From NCBI GenBank assembly GCA_001000065.1, contig LCGZ01000004.1:128867-192866 (forward strand): a DNA stretch of 64,000 nucleotides. The letters run 5' to 3'. This stretch comes from a candidate division TM6 bacterium GW2011_GWF2_43_87 (GTDB lineage: Bacteria; Babelota; Babeliae; Babelales; Babelaceae). The notes under the pieces were generated by a model. It did no database searches and was not told the origin of the DNA. It saw only the letters and a list, made by a program, of their open reading frames with translations. Position numbers and translations under genes: made by a program. Shown one piece after another: positions 13,941 to 60,125 of this stretch; position 1 is the first letter of the stretch; each line of letters starts with the position of its first letter.

Positions 13941-14527
13941 TTTGATTTAAAGACAAATTCAGCATCTGGTGATGCTAAGGGATAACTGACACCGCGAATG
14001 GATACTTTAAGTGTTTCATCGTCAATAGAATCTTCTTGCCATACTTCTGCTCCATTTGCTATCCAGCTTCCCGAGAGGGTTGGCTTTTCTGCAGGTCCTT
14101 TTAGAGCATTGATACCGATGGTGTCTTTTGCCAGGAATGTTCCCGCGATGATGCCTCTTACAAAGCCTTTTGTGATTGCACCATACCAAATTTCGATGGC
14201 AGGGTGACTGTTATCCAAAAATTCTACTCGAGCACCGCGAATAATCTGTCTAAAAGGACTTATCTCCCCACTGACTATCCAATCAAACATGACGGATTCT
14301 TGTGGATTTACAAAGTAAGGTTTTCGGTTTGAGTTGATTATCCATCCATTTGGAGTCCAGACATAGGGAAGTGCTTTTAAGGTTGTGGTAGGTAAAAGAT
14401 TTTTTATCCACCCTTCTGCACTAAGATTGGGGGAGGATTTTATAGGCGCTATAAATGCAAAAGCAGCTCCGATTAAAAGGAGGCTTGGATGCATTGCCAT
14501 AATTATCCATCGATAAAGATTTTTCAT
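13937..14527 (-). CDS. Secreted hypothetical protein, triplet paralog B
   Basis: Signal peptide. LPYVWTPNGW…VMFDWIVSGE…RGARVEFLDN…IWYGA. Confidence 0.6.
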   Translation of the reverse strand: MKNLYRWIIMAMHPSLLLIGAAFAFIAPIKSSPNLSAEGWIKNLLPTTTLKALPYVWTPNGWIINSNRKPYFVNPQESVMFDWIVSGEISPFRQIIRGARVEFLDNSHPAIEIWYGAITKGFVRGIIAGTFLAKDTIGINALKGPAEKPTLSGSWIANGAEVWQEDSIDDETLKVSIRGVSYPLASPDAEFVFKSK

Positions 14528-14538
14528 GATTTAATCCT

Positions 14539-15150
14539 TTATATTTTTTTGAATAAGAAGCGTACGTCTGGTGATTGAGTAATGGGGTAAGCGACGCCCT
14601 CAGCCGCAATTAAAAGACCTTCGCCTTTATAAAATTCAATACGATTTTCCTTGAATCCCTGAGCCATCCACCAATTTTTTGCATCTTTTAGAACGGGCTG
14701 ATCAGGATGACCTACAATACACCCTTGTCCTATGACGGGCGTTGCAAGAGAGACGCAGGCTTCGGCGCGTCGAACATTTATTAAAGGTCCATCTCCACTA
14801 AAGGTAGCTGCAAACCAGATTTCAAAATTTCTGTCACCGACCTGAACAAGTGCACCTTTCATAAATGTTTTTCCAAAGGCGGCTGCTATTCCCGATGCTT
14901 CAATTCCCCAAATCCAGTCAAACATTACGCGTTCACCGGGCTTTACAATATAGGGAGCGCGGGCTGTATTTAAGACCCACCCTTTTGAATTTGTGTCTCG
15001 AGCCGCAGCGGTCCAGACAAATGGCTTGACTATAACATCTTGGTCAAAGTCATTGTGAATCCAACCCTGAAGATTGCCGTCCGTATTCGCGTTTGCAAAG
15101 AACGAACATAACAGAATGACTAGAGGTACATAATTTAATTTATTCCACAT
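14539..15150 (-). CDS. Secreted hypothetical protein, triplet paralog C
   Basis: Signal peptide. KPFVWTAAAR…VMFDWIWGIE…KGALVQVGDRNFEIWFAA. Confidence 0.6.
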   Translation of the reverse strand: MWNKLNYVPLVILLCSFFANANTDGNLQGWIHNDFDQDVIVKPFVWTAAARDTNSKGWVLNTARAPYIVKPGERVMFDWIWGIEASGIAAAFGKTFMKGALVQVGDRNFEIWFAATFSGDGPLINVRRAEACVSLATPVIGQGCIVGHPDQPVLKDAKNWWMAQGFKENRIEFYKGEGLLIAAEGVAYPITQSPDVRFLFKKI

Positions 15151-15410
15151 GAAACCTACTCCTTTTGGTTTTATTTAGTTTTTATAGTATCCATCTCTTA
15201 TTTTAGACTAACAAAATTCATTTCAATTTTGCAATAAAAACATTGAAAAAGTCGGGCATTTTTCCCTTGTTTTTGACAAAAAAGAAGATTGTTTTATACT
15301 ATAGTTCATGTTGTATGCTTGGCACCAATGTCACTAAATTTCCAGCGAGTCAAAATTAAGAATGTTCTCGCCATTGCATTCAGCAAGAACATTTTATGGA
15401 GGAAAATTCG

Positions 15411-23337: not shown

Positions 23338-23776
23338 GGGGGCGTACTGGCTTCGACGCGTTGTGCCTGTTGCAGAGAGCATGTCGAGCTTTGGTTTTGT
23401 GCTCGTTAAACAAAATACCAAAACAATAAGTGCAGCGACTAATATCCCTGCCGGTAGCTTATTTGCCTTGCTTCTTTCGGGCTTAATTGCACTCTTTGGT
23501 GCAGTTGCTCCTAGGAAACAAGAAGCTTTTGCTTAAAGCGTAAGCTACTACCTCTTTTTCGTGGCGTGTCCATCAGCTGCGTTTAAAGAGTATTACCAAG
23601 ATGGAACTGACACATAAGATTTTTTCGTTGTGGTAATGTGTCTGATCACTATAACGGGCTATCGCATTTTTCTCGTGTCTCTACGGGAATGCAGATAGTA
23701 TAATTAGAGAATAAGCATGTAGCGCTGGGCAATTGACAGGGCGTGGACATGGGTTCGACTCCCATCGCCTCCACCA
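23338..23776 (+). ncRNA. ssrA: tmRNA (transfer-messenger RNA, SsrA)
   Basis: 5' GGGGGCGTACTGGCTTCGACG pairs with 3' …GGGTTCGACTCCCATCGCCTCCACCA to form an acceptor stem with the G3-U70 alanine identity pair. There is a T-arm and an encoded CCA. The internal tag reading frame ends …KQEAFA-TAA (23432..23536). It lies about 1.6 kb from smpB. Confidence 0.85.
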
Positions 23777-45501: not shown

Positions 45502-45681
45502 AAAATCCTATTATTTCATAGTGTGTTTTTATTCATTAATTATGTTATTAGGATAAGGGAATAATATTTTTTGTAAAATACAGAGTATTGTTTTTCTATC
45601 TGGTTTTTCAAGGGGAATTTACGCAATAAAATATGTTAGACTAAGGGTAATGGTAAAAATTGCGGTGAGAGAAAGGGTGTT

Positions 45682-45852
45682 ATGACTGAACAAAAAAAGA
45701 AAAAGCTTATTCCCATTGGAATAGATGATTTTAAAGAGCTTGTGGAGCAGAATTATTATTTTGCGGATAAGAGTTTGTTGATAAAAGAGCTACTTGATTC
45801 TGGAGCTGCCGTAATACTTGTCCCTCGTCCTCAAAAGAGAGTTTTGTGTTGA
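45682..45852 (+). pseudogene. Truncated N-terminal fragment (56 codons) of a PF09820-like AAA-ATPase gene (paralog of 56733..58415)
   Basis: MTEQKKKKLIPIGIDDFKELVEQNYYFADKSLLIKELLDSGAAVILVPRPQKRVLC-stop is about 85% identical to the first 55 aa of the intact copy. Confidence 0.5.
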
Positions 45853-50936: not shown

Positions 50937-51012
50937 GAGCCGCTAGCTCAGGTGGTAGAGCAACAGCCTTTTAAGCTGTGGGTCGTAGGTTCGAGTCCTA
51001 CGCGGCTCACCA
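50937..51012 (+). tRNA. tRNA-Lys (anticodon UUU)
   Basis: Cloverleaf with acceptor GAGCCGC/GCGGCTC, anticodon loop cTTTTaa, T-arm GGTTCGAGTCC, and an encoded CCA. Confidence 0.9.
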
Positions 51013-51085
51013 GGTTTTTCTAAGACCTGTGTGAGGTTTTGAAATTTTGACAAGAGAAAGGCACGAGATCTAGGTCGTAGCTTCC

Positions 51086-51114
51086 TAAATTCTCTTGACA
51101 TGTTGTGGTTCAAC
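51086..51114 (+). promoter_or_regulatory. Candidate promoter for tRNA-Lys(CUU) (TTGACA, 17 nt spacer, TAACAT)
   Basis: The same ttctcttgaca -35 motif as the upstream tRNA promoter. Confidence 0.35.
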
Positions 51115-51136
51115 CCGTAACATTTGAATAGTGAAT

Positions 51137-51212
51137 GAGCCGCTAGCTCAGTTGGTAGAGCAACAGCCTCTTAAGCTGTGGGTCGTAGGTTCGAGCCCTA
51201 CGCGGCTCACCA
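51137..51212 (+). tRNA. tRNA-Lys (anticodon CUU)
   Basis: Near-identical to the first tRNA-Lys except for anticodon CTT and a few D-loop and T-arm bases. Encoded CCA. Confidence 0.9.
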
Positions 51213-51240
51213 TTCATTTACTTTCGGGTTTTCTATCCAG

Positions 51241-51318
51241 GTCCCCATCGTCTAGCCTGGTCCAGGACATCGCCCTTTCACGGCGGTAACAGGGGTTCGA
51301 ATCCCCTTGGGGACGCCA
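51241..51318 (+). tRNA. tRNA-Glu (anticodon UUC)
   Basis: Acceptor GTCCCCA/TGGGGAC. Anticodon loop CTTTCAC. T-arm GGTTCGAATCC. Discriminator G and CCA. Confidence 0.85.
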
Positions 51319-51516: not shown

Positions 51517-51759
51517 ATGCATTACGTATATCTTATTAGATCCGTAAAATTTCCTGATCAAACTTATGTTGGTAATACAGTCTATTTGAAGCAGCGATTG
51601 GAAGTCCATAATTCTGGTGGTTCCATTCATACAGCCAATGCTAGGCCATGGGAATTAGTTATGTTTCTTGGATTTAAAGATAAACTTAAAGCAACAGCAT
51701 TTGAAAAATACTTAAAATCAGGTTCGGGCAGGGTCTTTGCCAAAAAACATCTCTGGTAA
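51517..51759 (+). CDS. GIY-YIG nuclease-superfamily protein (YhbQ-like small standalone GIY-YIG)
   Basis: YVYLIRS…YVGNT…R…H…E motif spacing of the GIY-YIG catalytic domain. 80 aa. Confidence 0.65.
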   Translation: MHYVYLIRSVKFPDQTYVGNTVYLKQRLEVHNSGGSIHTANARPWELVMFLGFKDKLKATAFEKYLKSGSGRVFAKKHLW

Positions 51760-56463: not shown

Positions 56464-56662
56464 TTTTTAAAATACCTAGCGATGATACTATAACTAATCT
56501 AGCGATATAAATTTTTTCATCGACTCTCCAACTATTTTTTGGGACAATTTATTGTATCATGATCTTGATACAAATGTTTGGGGTTTGTTTTCTTTTACAA
56601 TCATTCCAGTTTTTGAGGGTTTGCAAAAATTTTTATAAGAGTTTTTAACGCGCCGCAGTACG

Positions 56663-56698
56663 CTGGTTGGTTGGGGTAAAGTTTGTTAATCTAATAAA
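56663..56698. repeat. 36-bp direct repeat, left copy, flanking the AAA-ATPase gene
   Basis: ctGgttggttggggtAaAgtttgttaatctaataaa matches 58428..58463 at 33 of 36 positions. Confidence 0.6.
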
Positions 56699-56732
56699 TA
56701 TCGGGTTGCCAAACAGACAAAAGGGTAAGTAA

Positions 56733-58415
56733 ATGACTGAGCAAAAGAAGAAAAAACTGATTCCTATCGGGATAGATGATTTTGAGCGGATTGTAGAGGG
56801 AAACTATTATTTTGCGGATAAGAGTTTGCTGATAAAAGAGCTGCTTGATTCTGGAGCCGTTGTAACCCTTATTCCTCGCCCACGACGTTTTGGTAAAACA
56901 TTGAATCTTTCTATGCTTCGTTATTTTTTTGAAAAAGTTAATCAGTCTCGTTGCCACCTTTTTGACGGGCTCAAGATTGAGCAACACGCCGACTGCATGA
57001 AGCATCAGGGGCAGTATCCGGTAATCTGGTTGACCTTTAAAGATGTTAAAAGTAAAAATTGGGCAGAGTGTTACCATTTGTTACGTAAGCAAATTTCAGG
57101 TGAATTTGCCCGTCACAGTTGGCTTGGTGAAAATCTTTTCTCGCCAGAAAGAGAGCAATTTGAAAAAATAAGAATGGGTGAAGGAGATTTGGCCGATTAT
57201 ATGCATGCGTTGCTTGATCTTTCCCGTTATCTAGAACATGTGCATAAAGCCAAAGTTATGATTCTTGTTGATGAATATGATGCTCCTATCCATGCGGGCT
57301 ACCTTAACGGCTACTATAACGAAATAATTGATTTCATGCGTGTGTTTATGGGTGCAGGACTTAAAGGCAATAATTCTCTCAACTTTGGTGTATTAACCGG
57401 AATTTTACGAGTAGCAAAAGAAAGTATTTTTAGTGGGATTAATAACTTACGAGTTTGTACGCTTGTACAGGATAGTTATGCCAATCAATTTGGGTTTCTT
57501 GAAGCTGAAGTAAGAGCGATGCTCACCTATTTTGAGTTGGAAAACAAGCTTGATGAGGTAAAGCGTTGGTATAATGGTTATCAGAGTGGTTCTTACAAAG
57601 TATATAATCCCTGGTCTATTATCAATTTGGCCGGCAATAAAGGGGTAATACACGCTTACTGGGTTAATACAAGTGATAATGCCCTTATAAAAGATCTGCT
57701 CAAACGTTGTACTCCCGAAATGAAAGAAGATCTTGAGGTTATCGTCAAAGGGGGTAAGGTAACTAAAGCTATTCAAGAAAATATTATCATGCTTGATATT
57801 GAGAAAAACGACGCAGTATTGTGGAATTTTTTGCTTTTTTCAGGATATCTAACTTTTGAAAACTATCGATTAATTGAGGACATCAACTACGCAGAGCTTT
57901 TGATTCCTAATGTTGAGGTTGGCACCACATACAAAACCTCGTTTAGTACGTGGTTTGCTGAAGGCTCTGGTATGCGCAATTATACCAAAATGCTCGAAAG
58001 TCTTGTTGCAGGAGAGATGGAGCCTTTTCAAGATTATTTTATGAAGTTTACACGAGAAACATTGAGCACTTTTGATATGCATGGTGATGAACCAGAGCGT
58101 TTTTATCATGCGCTTGTGTTGGGTATGCTTGCAACGTTAGCATCAACACATGAAGTACGTTCAAATCGTGAAAGCGGCTACGGACGTTATGATGTTTCAC
58201 TTATTCCAAAAGATCTTTCAAAATCGGGCATTATACTTGAGTTCAAAAAGGTTAATATTAAAAGAAAAGAGACGTTGAAAACTGCGGCGCAAAATGCTCT
58301 CAAGCAAATTGAAGAGAGGGATTACGAGACTGAATTGCGTGCTCGAGGACTTAATAAAATTATCAAGCTAGGCATTGCGTTTTTAGGCAAAGAAAGCCTT
58401 GTTTTGATAGGATAA
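56733..58415 (+). CDS. Predicted AAA-ATPase with C-terminal PD-(D/E)XK nuclease domain (PF09820 AAA-ATPase_like + PDDEXK_9-like)
   Basis: N-terminal KLIPIGIDDFERIVEGNYYFADKSLLIKEL is the hallmark start of this family. C-terminal GRYDVSLIP…IILEFKK is a PD-(D/E)XK motif. Confidence 0.75.
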   Translation: MTEQKKKKLIPIGIDDFERIVEGNYYFADKSLLIKELLDSGAVVTLIPRPRRFGKTLNLSMLRYFFEKVNQSRCHLFDGLKIEQHADCMKHQGQYPVIWLTFKDVKSKNWAECYHLLRKQISGEFARHSWLGENLFSPEREQFEKIRMGEGDLADYMHALLDLSRYLEHVHKAKVMILVDEYDAPIHAGYLNGYYNEIIDFMRVFMGAGLKGNNSLNFGVLTGILRVAKESIFSGINNLRVCTLVQDSYANQFGFLEAEVRAMLTYFELENKLDEVKRWYNGYQSGSYKVYNPWSIINLAGNKGVIHAYWVNTSDNALIKDLLKRCTPEMKEDLEVIVKGGKVTKAIQENIIMLDIEKNDAVLWNFLLFSGYLTFENYRLIEDINYAELLIPNVEVGTTYKTSFSTWFAEGSGMRNYTKMLESLVAGEMEPFQDYFMKFTRETLSTFDMHGDEPERFYHALVLGMLATLASTHEVRSNRESGYGRYDVSLIPKDLSKSGIILEFKKVNIKRKETLKTAAQNALKQIEERDYETELRARGLNKIIKLGIAFLGKESLVLIG

Positions 58416-58427
58416 ATAGACGAGTGG

Positions 58428-58463
58428 CTAGTTGGTTGGGGTGATGTTTGTTAATCTAATAAA
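58428..58463. repeat. 36-bp direct repeat, right copy
   Basis: See the left copy. Located 12 nt after the stop codon of 56733..58415. Confidence 0.6.
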
Positions 58464-58553
58464 ACTTGTTAAGTGGACTTTTAAAGTAATTGAGGTATGA
58501 ATGCGACAATGCATCCATGCTTCAATCACTTATCTTCGTTATCATTAAGCTTT

Positions 58554-59810
58554 TTACTGATTATTGTACTCAAACTTAAACCATAAATCGCACAATTTTC
58601 GCATCGTCTTGGCCGGAATAACTATTTTACCGTCCGTTTTTGTGTAGGCCGGTACAACTTTTTGTAGATTCCGTAAAAACATAAGGTGTTCATGCGTTAG
58701 ACTAAACTCAGCCTTCAACTGCCTCAATGACAAACGGAATACTAGCTTTTCTATCCCCATCGCACTGTTCGATCCAACCACTATCGGCCAGAGATGGGCA
58801 GGTTTCTTTGCCACAGTCGCAAACGGAGTAAATAAGAGCAAGCGCACGGCCGTTTCTATCTGATTAATCACCTGCTCAGGATTTGCAATTCCGGTATATT
58901 TGCGTAGCCCATCATTACTCGAAATTATTGGGGCGACTGTAGAATTTTGTTGCATATTTTCAGCCAAGGAGGAAACCACAAGCTCTTTAAAAATTCGACT
59001 TTTTTGCGGCTCTTCTGTCTCGGTCTCAGCTCCTGCTTCTGGAACAGAGAGCAAGCTCATTAATAATTTCTTCCGCCCTGCAGTTGTCCATTTAGAAGAG
59101 CAAATTGTTTCAATGGCCTTTTTGCCTAAAGCACCAGCCGTTGCATCTGCTCCATTCTTCAGCAACAGCTCTACCATCTTTAGATTATTCCTCCAGCATG
59201 CGCGATAGAGCGGTGTTTCCCTATCTTTATCCACTTTATTTACAGATTCTTTTGCTCCATTGTTCAGCAACAGCTTCACTATCTCTAGATTATCTTTGTA
59301 GCATGCCCAGTAGAGCGGCGTTTCTTCATTATTATTCGCCCTATTCACAGAATCCTTTGCTCCATTGTTCAGCAACAGCTCTACCATCTTTAGATTATTG
59401 TTGTAGCATGCGCAGTAGAGCGGTGTCACCCTATTATCATCTACTTTATTTACAGAGTCCTTCGCTCCGTTCTTTAGCAACAGCTCCACCATCTCTAGAT
59501 TATTATTCAAGCATGCCCAGTAAAGCGGTGCCTTACCCCACGTATTTGCTTTATTTACAGATTCTTTAGCTCCATTCTTCAGCAACAACTTCACCATCTC
59601 TAGATTACCTTTGTGGCATGCCCAGCAGAGCGAAGTCCCTCCATTTTCATTCACCTGATTTACTTCATCGTTATCCAGCTTTTCAAGGTATTTTTGCACC
59701 TCTTCAATCTTATTCTTTTCTATTAAATCAAAAAGCGTACCCCCCAGTGCTTCAGGCGCATGGGTAGATAATGCACAGATGGTAAGTAGAGCAATTTTTA
59801 TAATTTTCAT
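58554..59810 (-). CDS. Ankyrin-repeat protein with signal peptide and near-identical tandem 33-aa repeats. C-terminal domain unknown
   Basis: AAAGGTG RBS then ATG at 59810. Signal peptide MKIIKIALLTICALSTHA. Five or more ANK units of the form LLLKNGAK[ED]SVN…TPLYWAC..NNL[EK]MVE. Confidence 0.8.
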   Translation of the reverse strand: MKIIKIALLTICALSTHAPEALGGTLFDLIEKNKIEEVQKYLEKLDNDEVNQVNENGGTSLCWACHKGNLEMVKLLLKNGAKESVNKANTWGKAPLYWACLNNNLEMVELLLKNGAKDSVNKVDDNRVTPLYCACYNNNLKMVELLLNNGAKDSVNRANNNEETPLYWACYKDNLEIVKLLLNNGAKESVNKVDKDRETPLYRACWRNNLKMVELLLKNGADATAGALGKKAIETICSSKWTTAGRKKLLMSLLSVPEAGAETETEEPQKSRIFKELVVSSLAENMQQNSTVAPIISSNDGLRKYTGIANPEQVINQIETAVRLLLFTPFATVAKKPAHLWPIVVGSNSAMGIEKLVFRLSLRQLKAEFSLTHEHLMFLRNLQKVVPAYTKTDGKIVIPAKTMRKLCDLWFKFEYNNQ

Positions 59811-59992
59811 ATTGCACCTTTCTTTTGAATAAAACATTATCCGATGCTTTGTATGTGACCTACACCATTATACACTCTTTATTTTATCCCAGTTTTTTTT
59901 CGCGCTAACTCGGCTTCGCCTCCGGTTCTTCGCGCTTTAGGGTAGCATTCATCCTCAGGTTTAAAAAGACCTGGGGTTTTTTGCTTGGTTTT

Positions 59993-60112
59993 CTTAAAGG
60001 TGAAGTGAGAGCGATGCTCGCCTATTTTGAGTTAAAAAATAAGCTTGATGAGGTAAGGCGCTGGTATAACGGTTATCAGAGGGGTTTTACAAAGTATAAA
60101 ACCCCTGGTCTA
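59993..60112 (+). pseudogene. Internal fragment (about 40 codons) of another PF09820-like AAA-ATPase paralog
   Basis: The DNA aligns with 57507..57625 of the intact gene (…SDARLF-ELKNKLDEVRRWYNGYQRGFTKYKTPGLFS-like). Flanking sequence is unrelated. Confidence 0.45.
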
Positions 60113-60125
60113 TTCTCAATAGCCG

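What the first reader, a model, noticed from the sequence alone, without database searches (positions are those of the whole stretch)
56663..58463. AAA-ATPase / PD-(D/E)XK (PF09820-like) gene bracketed by 36-bp direct repeats, with two decayed fragments of paralogs elsewhere in the window
The intact gene (56733..58415) is flanked by ctggttggttggggtaaagtttgttaatctaataaa (56663) and its 33/36 match at 58428. A chance match of that length in 64 kb is negligible. There is also a 56-codon N-terminal fragment of a paralog at 45682..45852 and an internal ~120-nt fragment at 59993..60112. The end of the window holds a partial AAA_14/DUF4143 ATPase gene as well. The family therefore behaves like a proliferating and decaying selfish or defence-like element. 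The repeats could be attachment-site or target-site duplications, or the promoter-leader of a lost tandem copy.
Basis: seen in the sequence. Interest (0 to 1): 0.55.

Follow-up and report, generated by a model that had tools for sequence, protein, structure and literature searches.

The report
Orphan promoter of a lost paralog
The two 37-base repeats around this ATPase-nuclease gene are not insertion scars: they are two copies of the promoter region that sits in front of every close member of this multi-copy gene family, and the second copy was left behind by a neighbouring family gene that has since been destroyed, which is ordinary gene-family turnover in an intracellular-type bacterium.

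Summary
A 37-nt direct repeat (56662-56698 and 58427-58463, 34/37 identical) brackets an intact PF09820 + PF08011 (DUF1703) gene. Two dead fragments of paralogs lie at 45682-45837 and 59966-60120.

The insertion-boundary reading fails. The same block lies at a fixed position, ending 34-35 nt before the ATG, upstream of paralogs at unrelated loci in this Candidatus Dependentiae (TM6) genome and a sister genome. All five metagenome matches to the degenerate motif sit directly before a family gene. None of nine other family genes is bracketed by repeats.

The block contains an extended -10-like core, TGnTAnnCT, found 40-60 nt before the ATG in all 13 paralog upstreams inspected. It stays 27-29/37 identical between paralogs whose four-fold sites are only 37% identical.

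The downstream copy keeps every invariant position but has no gene behind it. An opposite-strand ankyrin gene follows, then a 45-codon family fragment carrying a frameshift and a stop codon.

A comparable array with a deletion derivative exists in the sister genome. DUF1703 expansions with decay and recombination are already described in Cardinium. Interest is low.

The parts
56662..56698 (+). Upstream copy of the 37-nt block (variant V1: GCTRGKTGGTT-N8-GTTTGTTAnnCTAA). It is the conserved promoter region of the intact gene. The extended -10-like core TGTTAATCT lies at 56684-56692.
   Evidence: The same block in the same register lies before P0002, P0019, P0020, L092a/b and L094. Promoter function is inferred from the consensus and the position.
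56699..56732 (+). Leader between the promoter block and the start codon, with a Shine-Dalgarno-like AAGGG at 56721-56725.
   Evidence: It is conserved 32/34 with the P0002 leader but not with the P0019/P0020 leaders.
56733..58415 (+). Intact DUF1703-type gene (560 aa): an N-terminal PF09820 AAA-ATPase-like domain and a C-terminal PF08011 PD-(D/E)XK nuclease domain.
   Evidence: It is 100% identical to P0001 from Candidatus Dependentiae. Invariant residues include Walker A G54-K55-T56, D180-E181-Y182-D183, and D487/E503/K505.
58427..58463 (+). Downstream copy of the 37-nt block, an orphan promoter region with no family gene behind it. All positions that are invariant among functional copies are retained. 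A weaker resemblance to the P0019/P0020 upstream regions may extend left to about 58414.
   Evidence: Homology to the family leader stops at 58463. One search shows the 50-nt match to L004.
58554..59837 (-). Ankyrin-repeat gene (427 aa) lying on the opposite strand between the orphan promoter and the internal family fragment. It occupies the place where the first ~246 codons of the lost paralog would be.
   Evidence: It contains internal 105-nt tandem units at 59148-59633.
59966..60120 (+). Internal pseudogene fragment of a family member (codons ~247-298), with a 1-nt deletion near 60082 and an in-frame TAA at 60097-60099. It ends at the 3' end of the Band_7 gene.
45631..45837 (+). A second dead copy. 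It keeps its own promoter region of the other variant (V2: ATATGTTAGACTAA at 45631-45644), the leader, and the first 52 codons. It is truncated just before the Walker A motif, and the ORF runs on to a stop at 45852.
   Evidence: The best DNA match including the upstream region is to P0003 of the sister genome (85% over 208 nt).

Best explanation
The 37-nt repeat is the promoter region of a multi-copy DUF1703 gene family (AAA-ATPase-like + PD-(D/E)XK nuclease) in a Candidatus Dependentiae genome.

The block ends 34-35 nt before the start codon. It carries an extended -10-type element (TG-n-TAnnCT) and, upstream of that, a box specific to this subfamily (GCTnGnTGGTT). It is copied whenever a family gene is duplicated and is then kept by selection.

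The copy at 56662-56698 drives the intact gene. The copy at 58427-58463, 12 nt after that gene's stop codon, is what remains of the promoter of a neighbouring, co-oriented family gene. That neighbour's leader and first ~246 codons were replaced by a segment carrying an opposite-strand ankyrin gene. Its 3' part was deleted, which left only a 45-codon frameshifted fragment at 59966-60120.

Shown: the fixed upstream position, the conservation, the family specificity, the absence of flanking repeats at other copies, the pseudogene state of the fragments, and the existence of comparable arrays with deletion derivatives in the sister genome.

Inferred: that the block acts as a promoter, and that the orphan block and the internal fragment come from one and the same lost gene.
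For: (1) The block lies at -71..-35 or -70..-34 from the ATG of paralogs at non-syntenic loci. Identity to the window copy is 36/37 for P0002, 29/37 for P0019 and 27/37 for P0020.

(2) A metagenome scan with GCTRGKTGGTT-N8-GTTTGTTAnnCTAA gave 5 matches. Every match is followed 35 nt later by the ATG of a family gene, and none precedes another kind of gene.

(3) None of nine other family genes has a direct repeat between its upstream 250 nt and downstream 400 nt. The best matches are 8-12 nt.

(4) Selective constraint. geneA versus P0019/P0020 is 37% identical at four-fold sites but 73-78% identical in the block. The leader and the sequence further upstream are not conserved between these subgroups.

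(5) All 13 paralog upstreams inspected carry TGnTAnnCT 40-60 nt before the ATG, with variation confined to the inner hexamer positions: TAATCT, TAGGCT, TAGACT, TAAACT, TACACT. More distant family members have canonical TGnTATACT or TGnTATAAT at the same place.

(6) TGnTAnnnT is 2.2-fold commoner in upstream intergenic DNA than in coding DNA of this genome. Ten of 14 hits lie at -70..-41. A near-identical TTTGTTAGTCTAA lies 50-65 nt before an unrelated gene at 15150.

(7) The three differences in the downstream copy all fall on positions that vary among functional copies.

(8) The order on the + strand is block, then internal fragment, which is collinear with a gene. The fragment is a pseudogene.

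(9) The sister genome has a co-oriented family array with an opposite-strand ankyrin gene and a deletion derivative. In the derivative, the upstream region is fused to the last 48 codons, between two copies that each carry the box (L092).
Against: No transcription start has been mapped. The generic sigma-70 scan did not call a promoter at the block, because there is no recognisable -35 hexamer.

The distance from the orphan block to the internal fragment is 1558 nt, against 828 nt in the intact gene. At least one replacement event must therefore be assumed.

The fragment is not closer to geneA (15-16 mismatches in 137) than to P0003 (12-13), L094 (13) or L092b (14). P0003 has the other promoter variant, so the block and the fragment could come from different dead copies.

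The complete 1.35-Mb genome was not available for a full census of the motif. The window genome itself was not returned by either collection scan.
Confidence: 0.8

Rival explanations
1. The repeats are a target-site duplication or attachment sites made when the gene inserted as a mobile element.
For: A gene is bracketed by a 34/37 direct repeat that is far beyond chance. The family is multi-copy, and it occurs on some plasmids and on unannotated phage-labelled contigs.
Against: The same sequence lies upstream of paralogs at unrelated loci, so it travels with the gene rather than belonging to a target. Nine other copies lack any downstream partner. A 37-nt duplication would be unusually long for a target-site duplication (general knowledge). 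There is no integrase or transposase in the bracket. The block ends at a constant 34-35 nt from the ATG.
Confidence: 0.03
2. Only the promoter block was duplicated locally, or it is kept for a present-day function such as driving an antisense RNA into the convergent ankyrin gene or a small ORF starting at 58497. Under this reading the internal fragment at 59966-60120 belongs to a different dead copy, for example the same P0003-like gene as the N-terminal fragment at 45682.
For: The orphan block has lost none of the invariant positions, whereas the fragment has a frameshift and a stop codon. Both fragments are nominally closest to P0003, which has the V2 promoter variant. An ATG lies 33 nt after the block, about where a start codon is expected.
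Against: Thirty-seven nt is too short to tell conservation from recent origin. The mismatch differences (12 versus 15 of 137) are not significant. The two fragments are 14 kb apart. The small ORF has no homology support, and its GAGG is too close to the ATG.
Confidence: 0.15
3. The conserved block is mainly an operator or activator site for a dedicated regulator, or a promoter for an alternative sigma factor, rather than a plain housekeeping promoter.
For: The box GCTnGnTGGTT is invariant in eight V1 sequences yet does not resemble a -35 hexamer. The V1 block was found only in front of family genes. Two similar heptamers (GKTGGTT and GTTTGTT) lie 15 nt apart.
Against: Other subfamilies (V2, and P0007/P0018/P0015) lack the box but keep the TGnTAnnCT core. 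No regulator gene is linked to the family loci. There is no sigma-54-type GG-N10-GC spacing in the sequence.
Confidence: 0.2
4. The block is part of a structured 5' leader RNA such as a riboswitch or attenuator.
For: It is a conserved non-coding sequence close to the start codon.
Against: There is no Rfam match at E <= 1. The consensus fold is -0.88 kcal/mol with an unfavourable covariation term, and the pairs break in the P0019/P0020 leaders. If the -10 reading is right, most of the block is not transcribed.
Confidence: 0.03

Closest known systems
DUF1703 gene-family expansions in intracellular bacteria (Cardinium hertigii cCpun, Simkania, Rickettsia; Siozios et al. 2019, PMC6387759)
   Same: The two-domain architecture PF09820 + PF08011 is the same. 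So are the many divergent paralogs per genome, the partial copies, the evidence of recombination among paralogs, the co-occurrence with expanded ankyrin-repeat genes, and the host-associated lifestyle.
   Different: The phylum here is Dependentiae/TM6, and the copy number seen is smaller (at least 4 and at least 7 intact copies). The Cardinium paper says nothing about shared upstream elements. Here a conserved promoter block and orphan promoter remnants are documented. The Cardinium proteins were predicted to be secreted, which was not tested here.
Extended -10 (TGn-TATAAT) sigma-70 promoters
   Same: A TG lies one base before a hexamer that keeps T at position 1, A at position 2 and T at position 6. 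It sits 40-60 nt before the ATG, with no need for a -35 match.
   Different: The hexamer has a conserved C at position 5 (TAnnCT), where the consensus has A. Activity has not been measured, and promoters of Dependentiae have not been characterised, to my knowledge.
Solo or orphan regulatory remnants left by gene decay in reduced or host-associated genomes (pseudogene erosion)
   Same: An intact-looking upstream region and short frameshifted coding fragments remain where a paralog once was. Deletions end at neighbouring gene boundaries.
   Different: No specific named system applies. This is a generic process, not a family.
Target-site duplications or att sites of mobile elements
   Same: Direct repeats flank a single gene.
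   Different: The repeat belongs to the gene's own upstream region at every locus. It is absent downstream of the other copies, and no recombinase is present.

Membership tests
DUF1703 family (PF09820 AAA-ATPase_like + PF08011 PDDEXK_9) | N-terminal PF09820 domain and C-terminal PF08011 domain in one protein, both above the Pfam gathering scores | tested here: met
   167.2 bits (cut-off 26.1) and 70.2 bits (cut-off 25.5).
DUF1703 family (PF09820 AAA-ATPase_like + PF08011 PDDEXK_9) | P-loop (GKT) and acidic Walker B-like motif in the ATPase domain; D...ExK catalytic triad in the nuclease domain | tested here: met
   G54, K55, T56, D180-E181-Y182-D183, D487, E503 and K505 are invariant in 29 sequences. 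Assigning them as catalytic rests on general knowledge of the folds.
DUF1703 family (PF09820 AAA-ATPase_like + PF08011 PDDEXK_9) | ATPase or nuclease activity | not testable with these tools
   No solved relative was found by sequence. The function of the family is unknown in the literature read.
Sigma-70 promoter of the extended -10 class | TG one base upstream of a -10 hexamer with T1, A2 and T6 | tested here: met
   TGTTAATCT at 56684-56692 and at 58449-58457. The equivalent is present in all 13 paralog upstreams.
Sigma-70 promoter of the extended -10 class | -35 hexamer resembling TTGACA 16-18 nt upstream (not obligatory for this class) | tested here: not met
   The consensus scan found no site at the block. 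The hexamer at 17-nt spacing is TGGTTG, which matches 2 of 6.
Sigma-70 promoter of the extended -10 class | Transcription starts 5-10 nt downstream of the -10 element | not testable with these tools
   No transcript data were available.
Mobile element bounded by a target-site duplication or att sites | Direct repeats flank each inserted copy, and the repeat sequence differs with the target or equals a host att site | tested here: not met
   Nine other copies have no flanking repeat. The repeat is the same family-specific sequence at every locus and lies upstream only.
Mobile element bounded by a target-site duplication or att sites | A transposase, integrase or other recombinase lies within the bounded segment | tested here: not met
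   The bracket holds one gene with only PF09820 and PF08011 domains.
Mobile element bounded by a target-site duplication or att sites | An empty site exists in a related genome | not tested
   The sister genome is not syntenic at this locus. All contigs carrying the identical protein show the same arrangement.
Known anti-phage defence systems (PADLOC) | A protein matching a PADLOC model | tested here: not met
   no family at E <= 0.01. A review lists PF09820 among the domains of RdrA, PARIS and Old-tin, but that is domain-level similarity only.
Known structured RNA (Rfam) | A covariance-model match, or a conserved fold with covariation | tested here: not met

The most novel reading that the evidence does not exclude
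The unit running from the promoter block to the stop codon may be a self-propagating cassette. Under this reading the family-specific box (GCTnGnTGGTT-N8-GTTTGTTA) serves not only as a promoter but also as the recombination or copy-junction site through which DUF1703 ATPase-nuclease genes spread and exchange segments within Dependentiae genomes. Orphan boxes such as 58427-58463 would still be active and would transcribe antisense into neighbouring ankyrin effector genes.
Probability: 0.07. Interest if true: 0.5.

Novelty: new member of a known kind. Interest (0 to 1): 0.15.

Why it matters
It matters little beyond annotation. The result removes a false lead for a mobile element or defence island. 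It gives an example of how a bracketing direct repeat can arise from gene-family turnover. It also provides a candidate promoter signature (TGnTAnnCT, 40-60 nt before the ATG) for an uncultured phylum in which no promoters have been mapped, to my knowledge.

It extends the known pattern of DUF1703 expansion, recombination and decay alongside ankyrin genes from Cardinium, Simkania and Rickettsia to Dependentiae. That fits the idea that this unexplained ATPase-nuclease family is repeatedly amplified in bacteria living inside eukaryotic cells.

Tried and rejected
1. Further family remnants in the window. tblastn with P0003 gave a weak hit at 14153-14293 (E 0.003), and a promoter-like TTTGTTAGTCTAA lies at 15199-15215 on the minus strand. 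The family HMM run on six-frame translations found nothing there, and the site precedes an unrelated ORF. I rejected it as a remnant and kept it as an example of the same -10 type before another gene.

2. Positional orthologue or empty site in the sister genome. The closest protein, P0002, lies in a different neighbourhood. P0003 shares only the PseudoU-MgtE pair several kb away. No ancestral state could be read.

3. Assigning the internal fragment to a parent gene. The mismatch matrices are unresolved, at 12-17 of 137.

It returned mostly distant relatives from many phyla, not the window genome. It was useful only for showing how wide and multi-copy the family is, and that distant members also have TGnTAnnnT upstream.

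5. Structured RNA was rejected.

6. Defence-system, NCBIfam and PDB sequence searches gave no hits.

7. My first ungapped register comparison of the block with P0019/P0020 was off by one base and gave spuriously low identities.

Full report
**1. Observation**

The window holds a 37-nt direct repeat at 56662-56698 and 58427-58463. The two copies are 34/37 identical. A search for the 33-nt core at up to three mismatches finds only these two copies, and none in 100 shuffles.

The ORF between them, 56733..58415 (+, 560 aa), matches PF09820 (AAA-ATPase_like) and PF08011 (PDDEXK_9) well above the gathering scores. That is the DUF1703 architecture.

Two dead pieces of family members are also present.
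- An N-terminal piece at 45682-45837 covers 52 codons, with the ORF running on to 45852.
- An internal piece at 59966-60120 is 88% identical in DNA to 57490-57626. It has a 1-nt deletion near 60082 and an in-frame TAA at 60097-60099.

A six-frame search with a family HMM finds no other remnant in the 64 kb. The gene cut by the window end is AAA_14/DUF4143, an unrelated family.

**2. Source and family**

The protein is identical to one from a Candidatus Dependentiae (candidate division TM6) groundwater genome, on contigs of up to 1.35 Mb. The window is also present in GCA_003506475.1.

The same genome encodes at least three further intact paralogs: P0019, P0020 and P0026, at 68-69% amino-acid identity. 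A sister genome (GW2011_GWE2_42_60) encodes at least seven: P0002, P0003, P0007, P0015, P0018, P0030 and a further one in L092.

The family is widespread and often multi-copy in other phyla. It occurs on 64 of 72,556 plasmids and on 33 unannotated phage-labelled contigs. There is no PADLOC, NCBIfam or PDB sequence match.

**3. What the repeat is**

I fetched the loci of the paralogs. The same block lies upstream of them at a fixed distance from the start codon.
- P0002: -71..-35, 36/37 identical.
- P0019: -70..-34, 29/37 identical.
- P0020: -70..-34, 27/37 identical.

These are non-syntenic neighbourhoods, next to genes such as SpoU/PLD, Omp85 and ankyrin genes.

A scan of the JGI metagenome collection with the degenerate motif GCTRGKTGGTT-N8-GTTTGTTAnnCTAA gave five matches. 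Each is followed 35 nt later by the ATG of a family gene, and none precedes another kind of gene.

I also compared the upstream 250 nt with the downstream 400 nt of nine other family genes. The best direct matches were only 8-12 nt. The block therefore belongs to the gene's own 5' region and is normally present once per gene. The bracketing seen in the window is the exception, not the rule. That excludes a target-site duplication or an att pair.

**4. Why a promoter**

In ungapped register, all 13 family upstream regions inspected share T-n-TG-n-TA-r-n-CT-AA 40-60 nt before the ATG.
- V1 has TTTGTTAATCTAA or TTTGTTAGGCTAA.
- V2 has ATATGYTARACTAA (P0003, P0026, L022 and the 45682 fragment).
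- P0007 and P0018 have TTTGGTAAACTAA.
- P0015 has TTTGTTACACTGA.

This is the pattern of an extended -10 element, TG one base before TAnnnT. Variation is confined to the inner hexamer positions. That the outer positions matter most is established knowledge of sigma-70 -10 recognition. More distant family members carry canonical TGTTATACT or TGCTATAAT at the same place.

The block is under constraint. geneA and P0019/P0020 are only 37% identical at four-fold degenerate sites, yet they are 73-78% identical in the block. The leader and the sequence further upstream are not conserved between these subgroups.

In the DNA of this genome that I hold, TGnTAnnnT is 2.9 per kb in upstream intergenic regions against 1.3 per kb in coding sequence. 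Ten of 14 upstream hits lie at -70..-41. One near-identical TTTGTTAGTCTAA precedes an unrelated gene.

There is no -35 match, and the generic scan did not call the site. The invariant upstream box GCTnGnTGGTT of the V1 group is unexplained and could be a regulator site. There is no Rfam hit and no conserved RNA fold. Promoter function is an inference, because no transcript data were available.

**5. The downstream copy**

This copy starts 12 nt after the stop codon of the intact gene. Its three differences from the upstream copy fall on positions that also vary among functional copies. Homology to family leaders ends abruptly at 58463.

What follows is the 3' end of an opposite-strand ankyrin-repeat gene (58554..59837). 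After that gene, on the + strand, comes the 45-codon internal family fragment, which stops at the 3' end of the Band_7 gene.

The order of promoter block and then internal fragment is collinear with a gene, but the two are 1558 nt apart instead of 828. The simplest history is this. A co-oriented neighbouring family gene lost its leader and first ~246 codons to a segment carrying the ankyrin gene. It then lost its 3' part to deletion.

The fragment belongs to the P0001/P0002/P0003 subclade, but it is equidistant from its members at 12-17 mismatches in 137 nt. I therefore cannot call it a recent tandem duplicate of this particular gene. I also cannot prove that the block and the fragment come from one gene.

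**6. Independent support from the sister genome**

Locus L092 shows a co-oriented array, in this order:
1. V1 box plus a full gene.
2. An opposite-strand 208-aa ORF.
3. A deletion derivative in which the upstream region is fused directly to the last 48 codons. The 3' end and its hairpin are duplicated.
4. An opposite-strand ankyrin gene.
5. V1 box plus the next gene.

Arrays of family genes with promoter boxes between them, interleaved ankyrin genes and eroded copies are thus a recurrent state in this lineage.

The N-terminal fragment at 45682 also keeps its own V2 promoter region and leader. Its coding part is closest to one paralog lineage (92% to L094) and its upstream region to another (L090). 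This hints at recombination among paralogs.

**7. Comparison with what is known**

DUF1703 was defined as a PD-(D/E)XK family that is multi-copy in some genomes (PMC1913061, PMC3424549). An expansion to at least 25 paralogs has been described for Cardinium hertigii cCpun, with partial copies, recombination, and co-occurring ankyrin expansions. Smaller expansions occur in Simkania and Rickettsia (PMC6387759).

The present locus is another example, in Dependentiae. The protein's function remains unknown. Its P-loop, acidic motif and D/ExK residues are invariant, so an ATP-dependent nuclease is the reasonable guess. 'Defence-like' has no specific support.

**8. Verdict**

The repeat is real. It is the conserved promoter region of a multi-copy gene family, and its second copy is the orphan of a destroyed neighbour. 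This is ordinary gene-family birth and death, not an insertion boundary. Novelty: a new member of a known kind. Interest is low.

Noticed in passing
window 15199-15215 (minus strand), upstream of ORF 14539..15150: TTTGTTAGTCTAAAATA is nearly the same as the -10 part of the family block. It lies 50-65 nt before an unrelated 203-aa ORF. It may illustrate the general promoter form of this genome.
   Followed up: partly
window 59148-59633 (inside the ankyrin gene 58554..59837, minus strand): Four tandem 105-nt units, 81-85% identical, lie within the ankyrin-repeat gene. This suggests recent expansion of the repeats.
   Followed up: no
L092 4100-3920 and 3084-2905 (sister genome, minus strand): The last ~100 nt of a family gene and its downstream hairpin are duplicated almost exactly. 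The second copy is fused on its 5' side to family upstream sequence, so it is a deletion derivative. A 208-aa ORF on the other strand lies between the two.
   Followed up: partly
window 45599-45840 compared with L094 472-596 and L090 7942-8149: The coding part of the N-terminal fragment is closest to the L094 gene (92% over 125 nt). Its upstream region is of the V2 type, like P0003 (L090). This mosaic suggests recombination between paralogs or promoter swapping.
   Followed up: partly
window 58497-58586 (+): A 29-codon ORF starts with an ATG 33 nt after the orphan promoter block, about where a family start codon would be. It overlaps the 3' end of the ankyrin gene. It has no homology to the family and there is no evidence that it is real.
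   Followed up: no
window 58414-58430 compared with L004 5917-5935 and L005: The sequence AAATAGACGAG just left of the downstream block resembles AAATAGTCGAG / AAATAGCCGCG left of the P0019/P0020 blocks. It overlaps the stop codon of the intact gene. This may be a longer remnant or chance.
   Followed up: no
window 50937-51318 and 51517..51759: A cluster of tRNA-Lys(ttt), tRNA-Lys(ctt) and tRNA-Glu(ttc) is followed by a small ORF. Its counterpart in L008 carries a GIY-YIG domain (80 aa).
   Followed up: no
window 23338-23776: A tmRNA gene with the predicted tag peptide APRKQEAFA.
   Followed up: no
L095 309-1499 and window 63647..>64000: An AAA_14/DUF4143 ATPase gene lies within a few kb of a DUF1703 gene in both genomes: next to P0015 in the sister genome, and about 5 kb from geneA here. 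This may be coincidence or a loose association of two multi-copy ATPase families.
   Followed up: no
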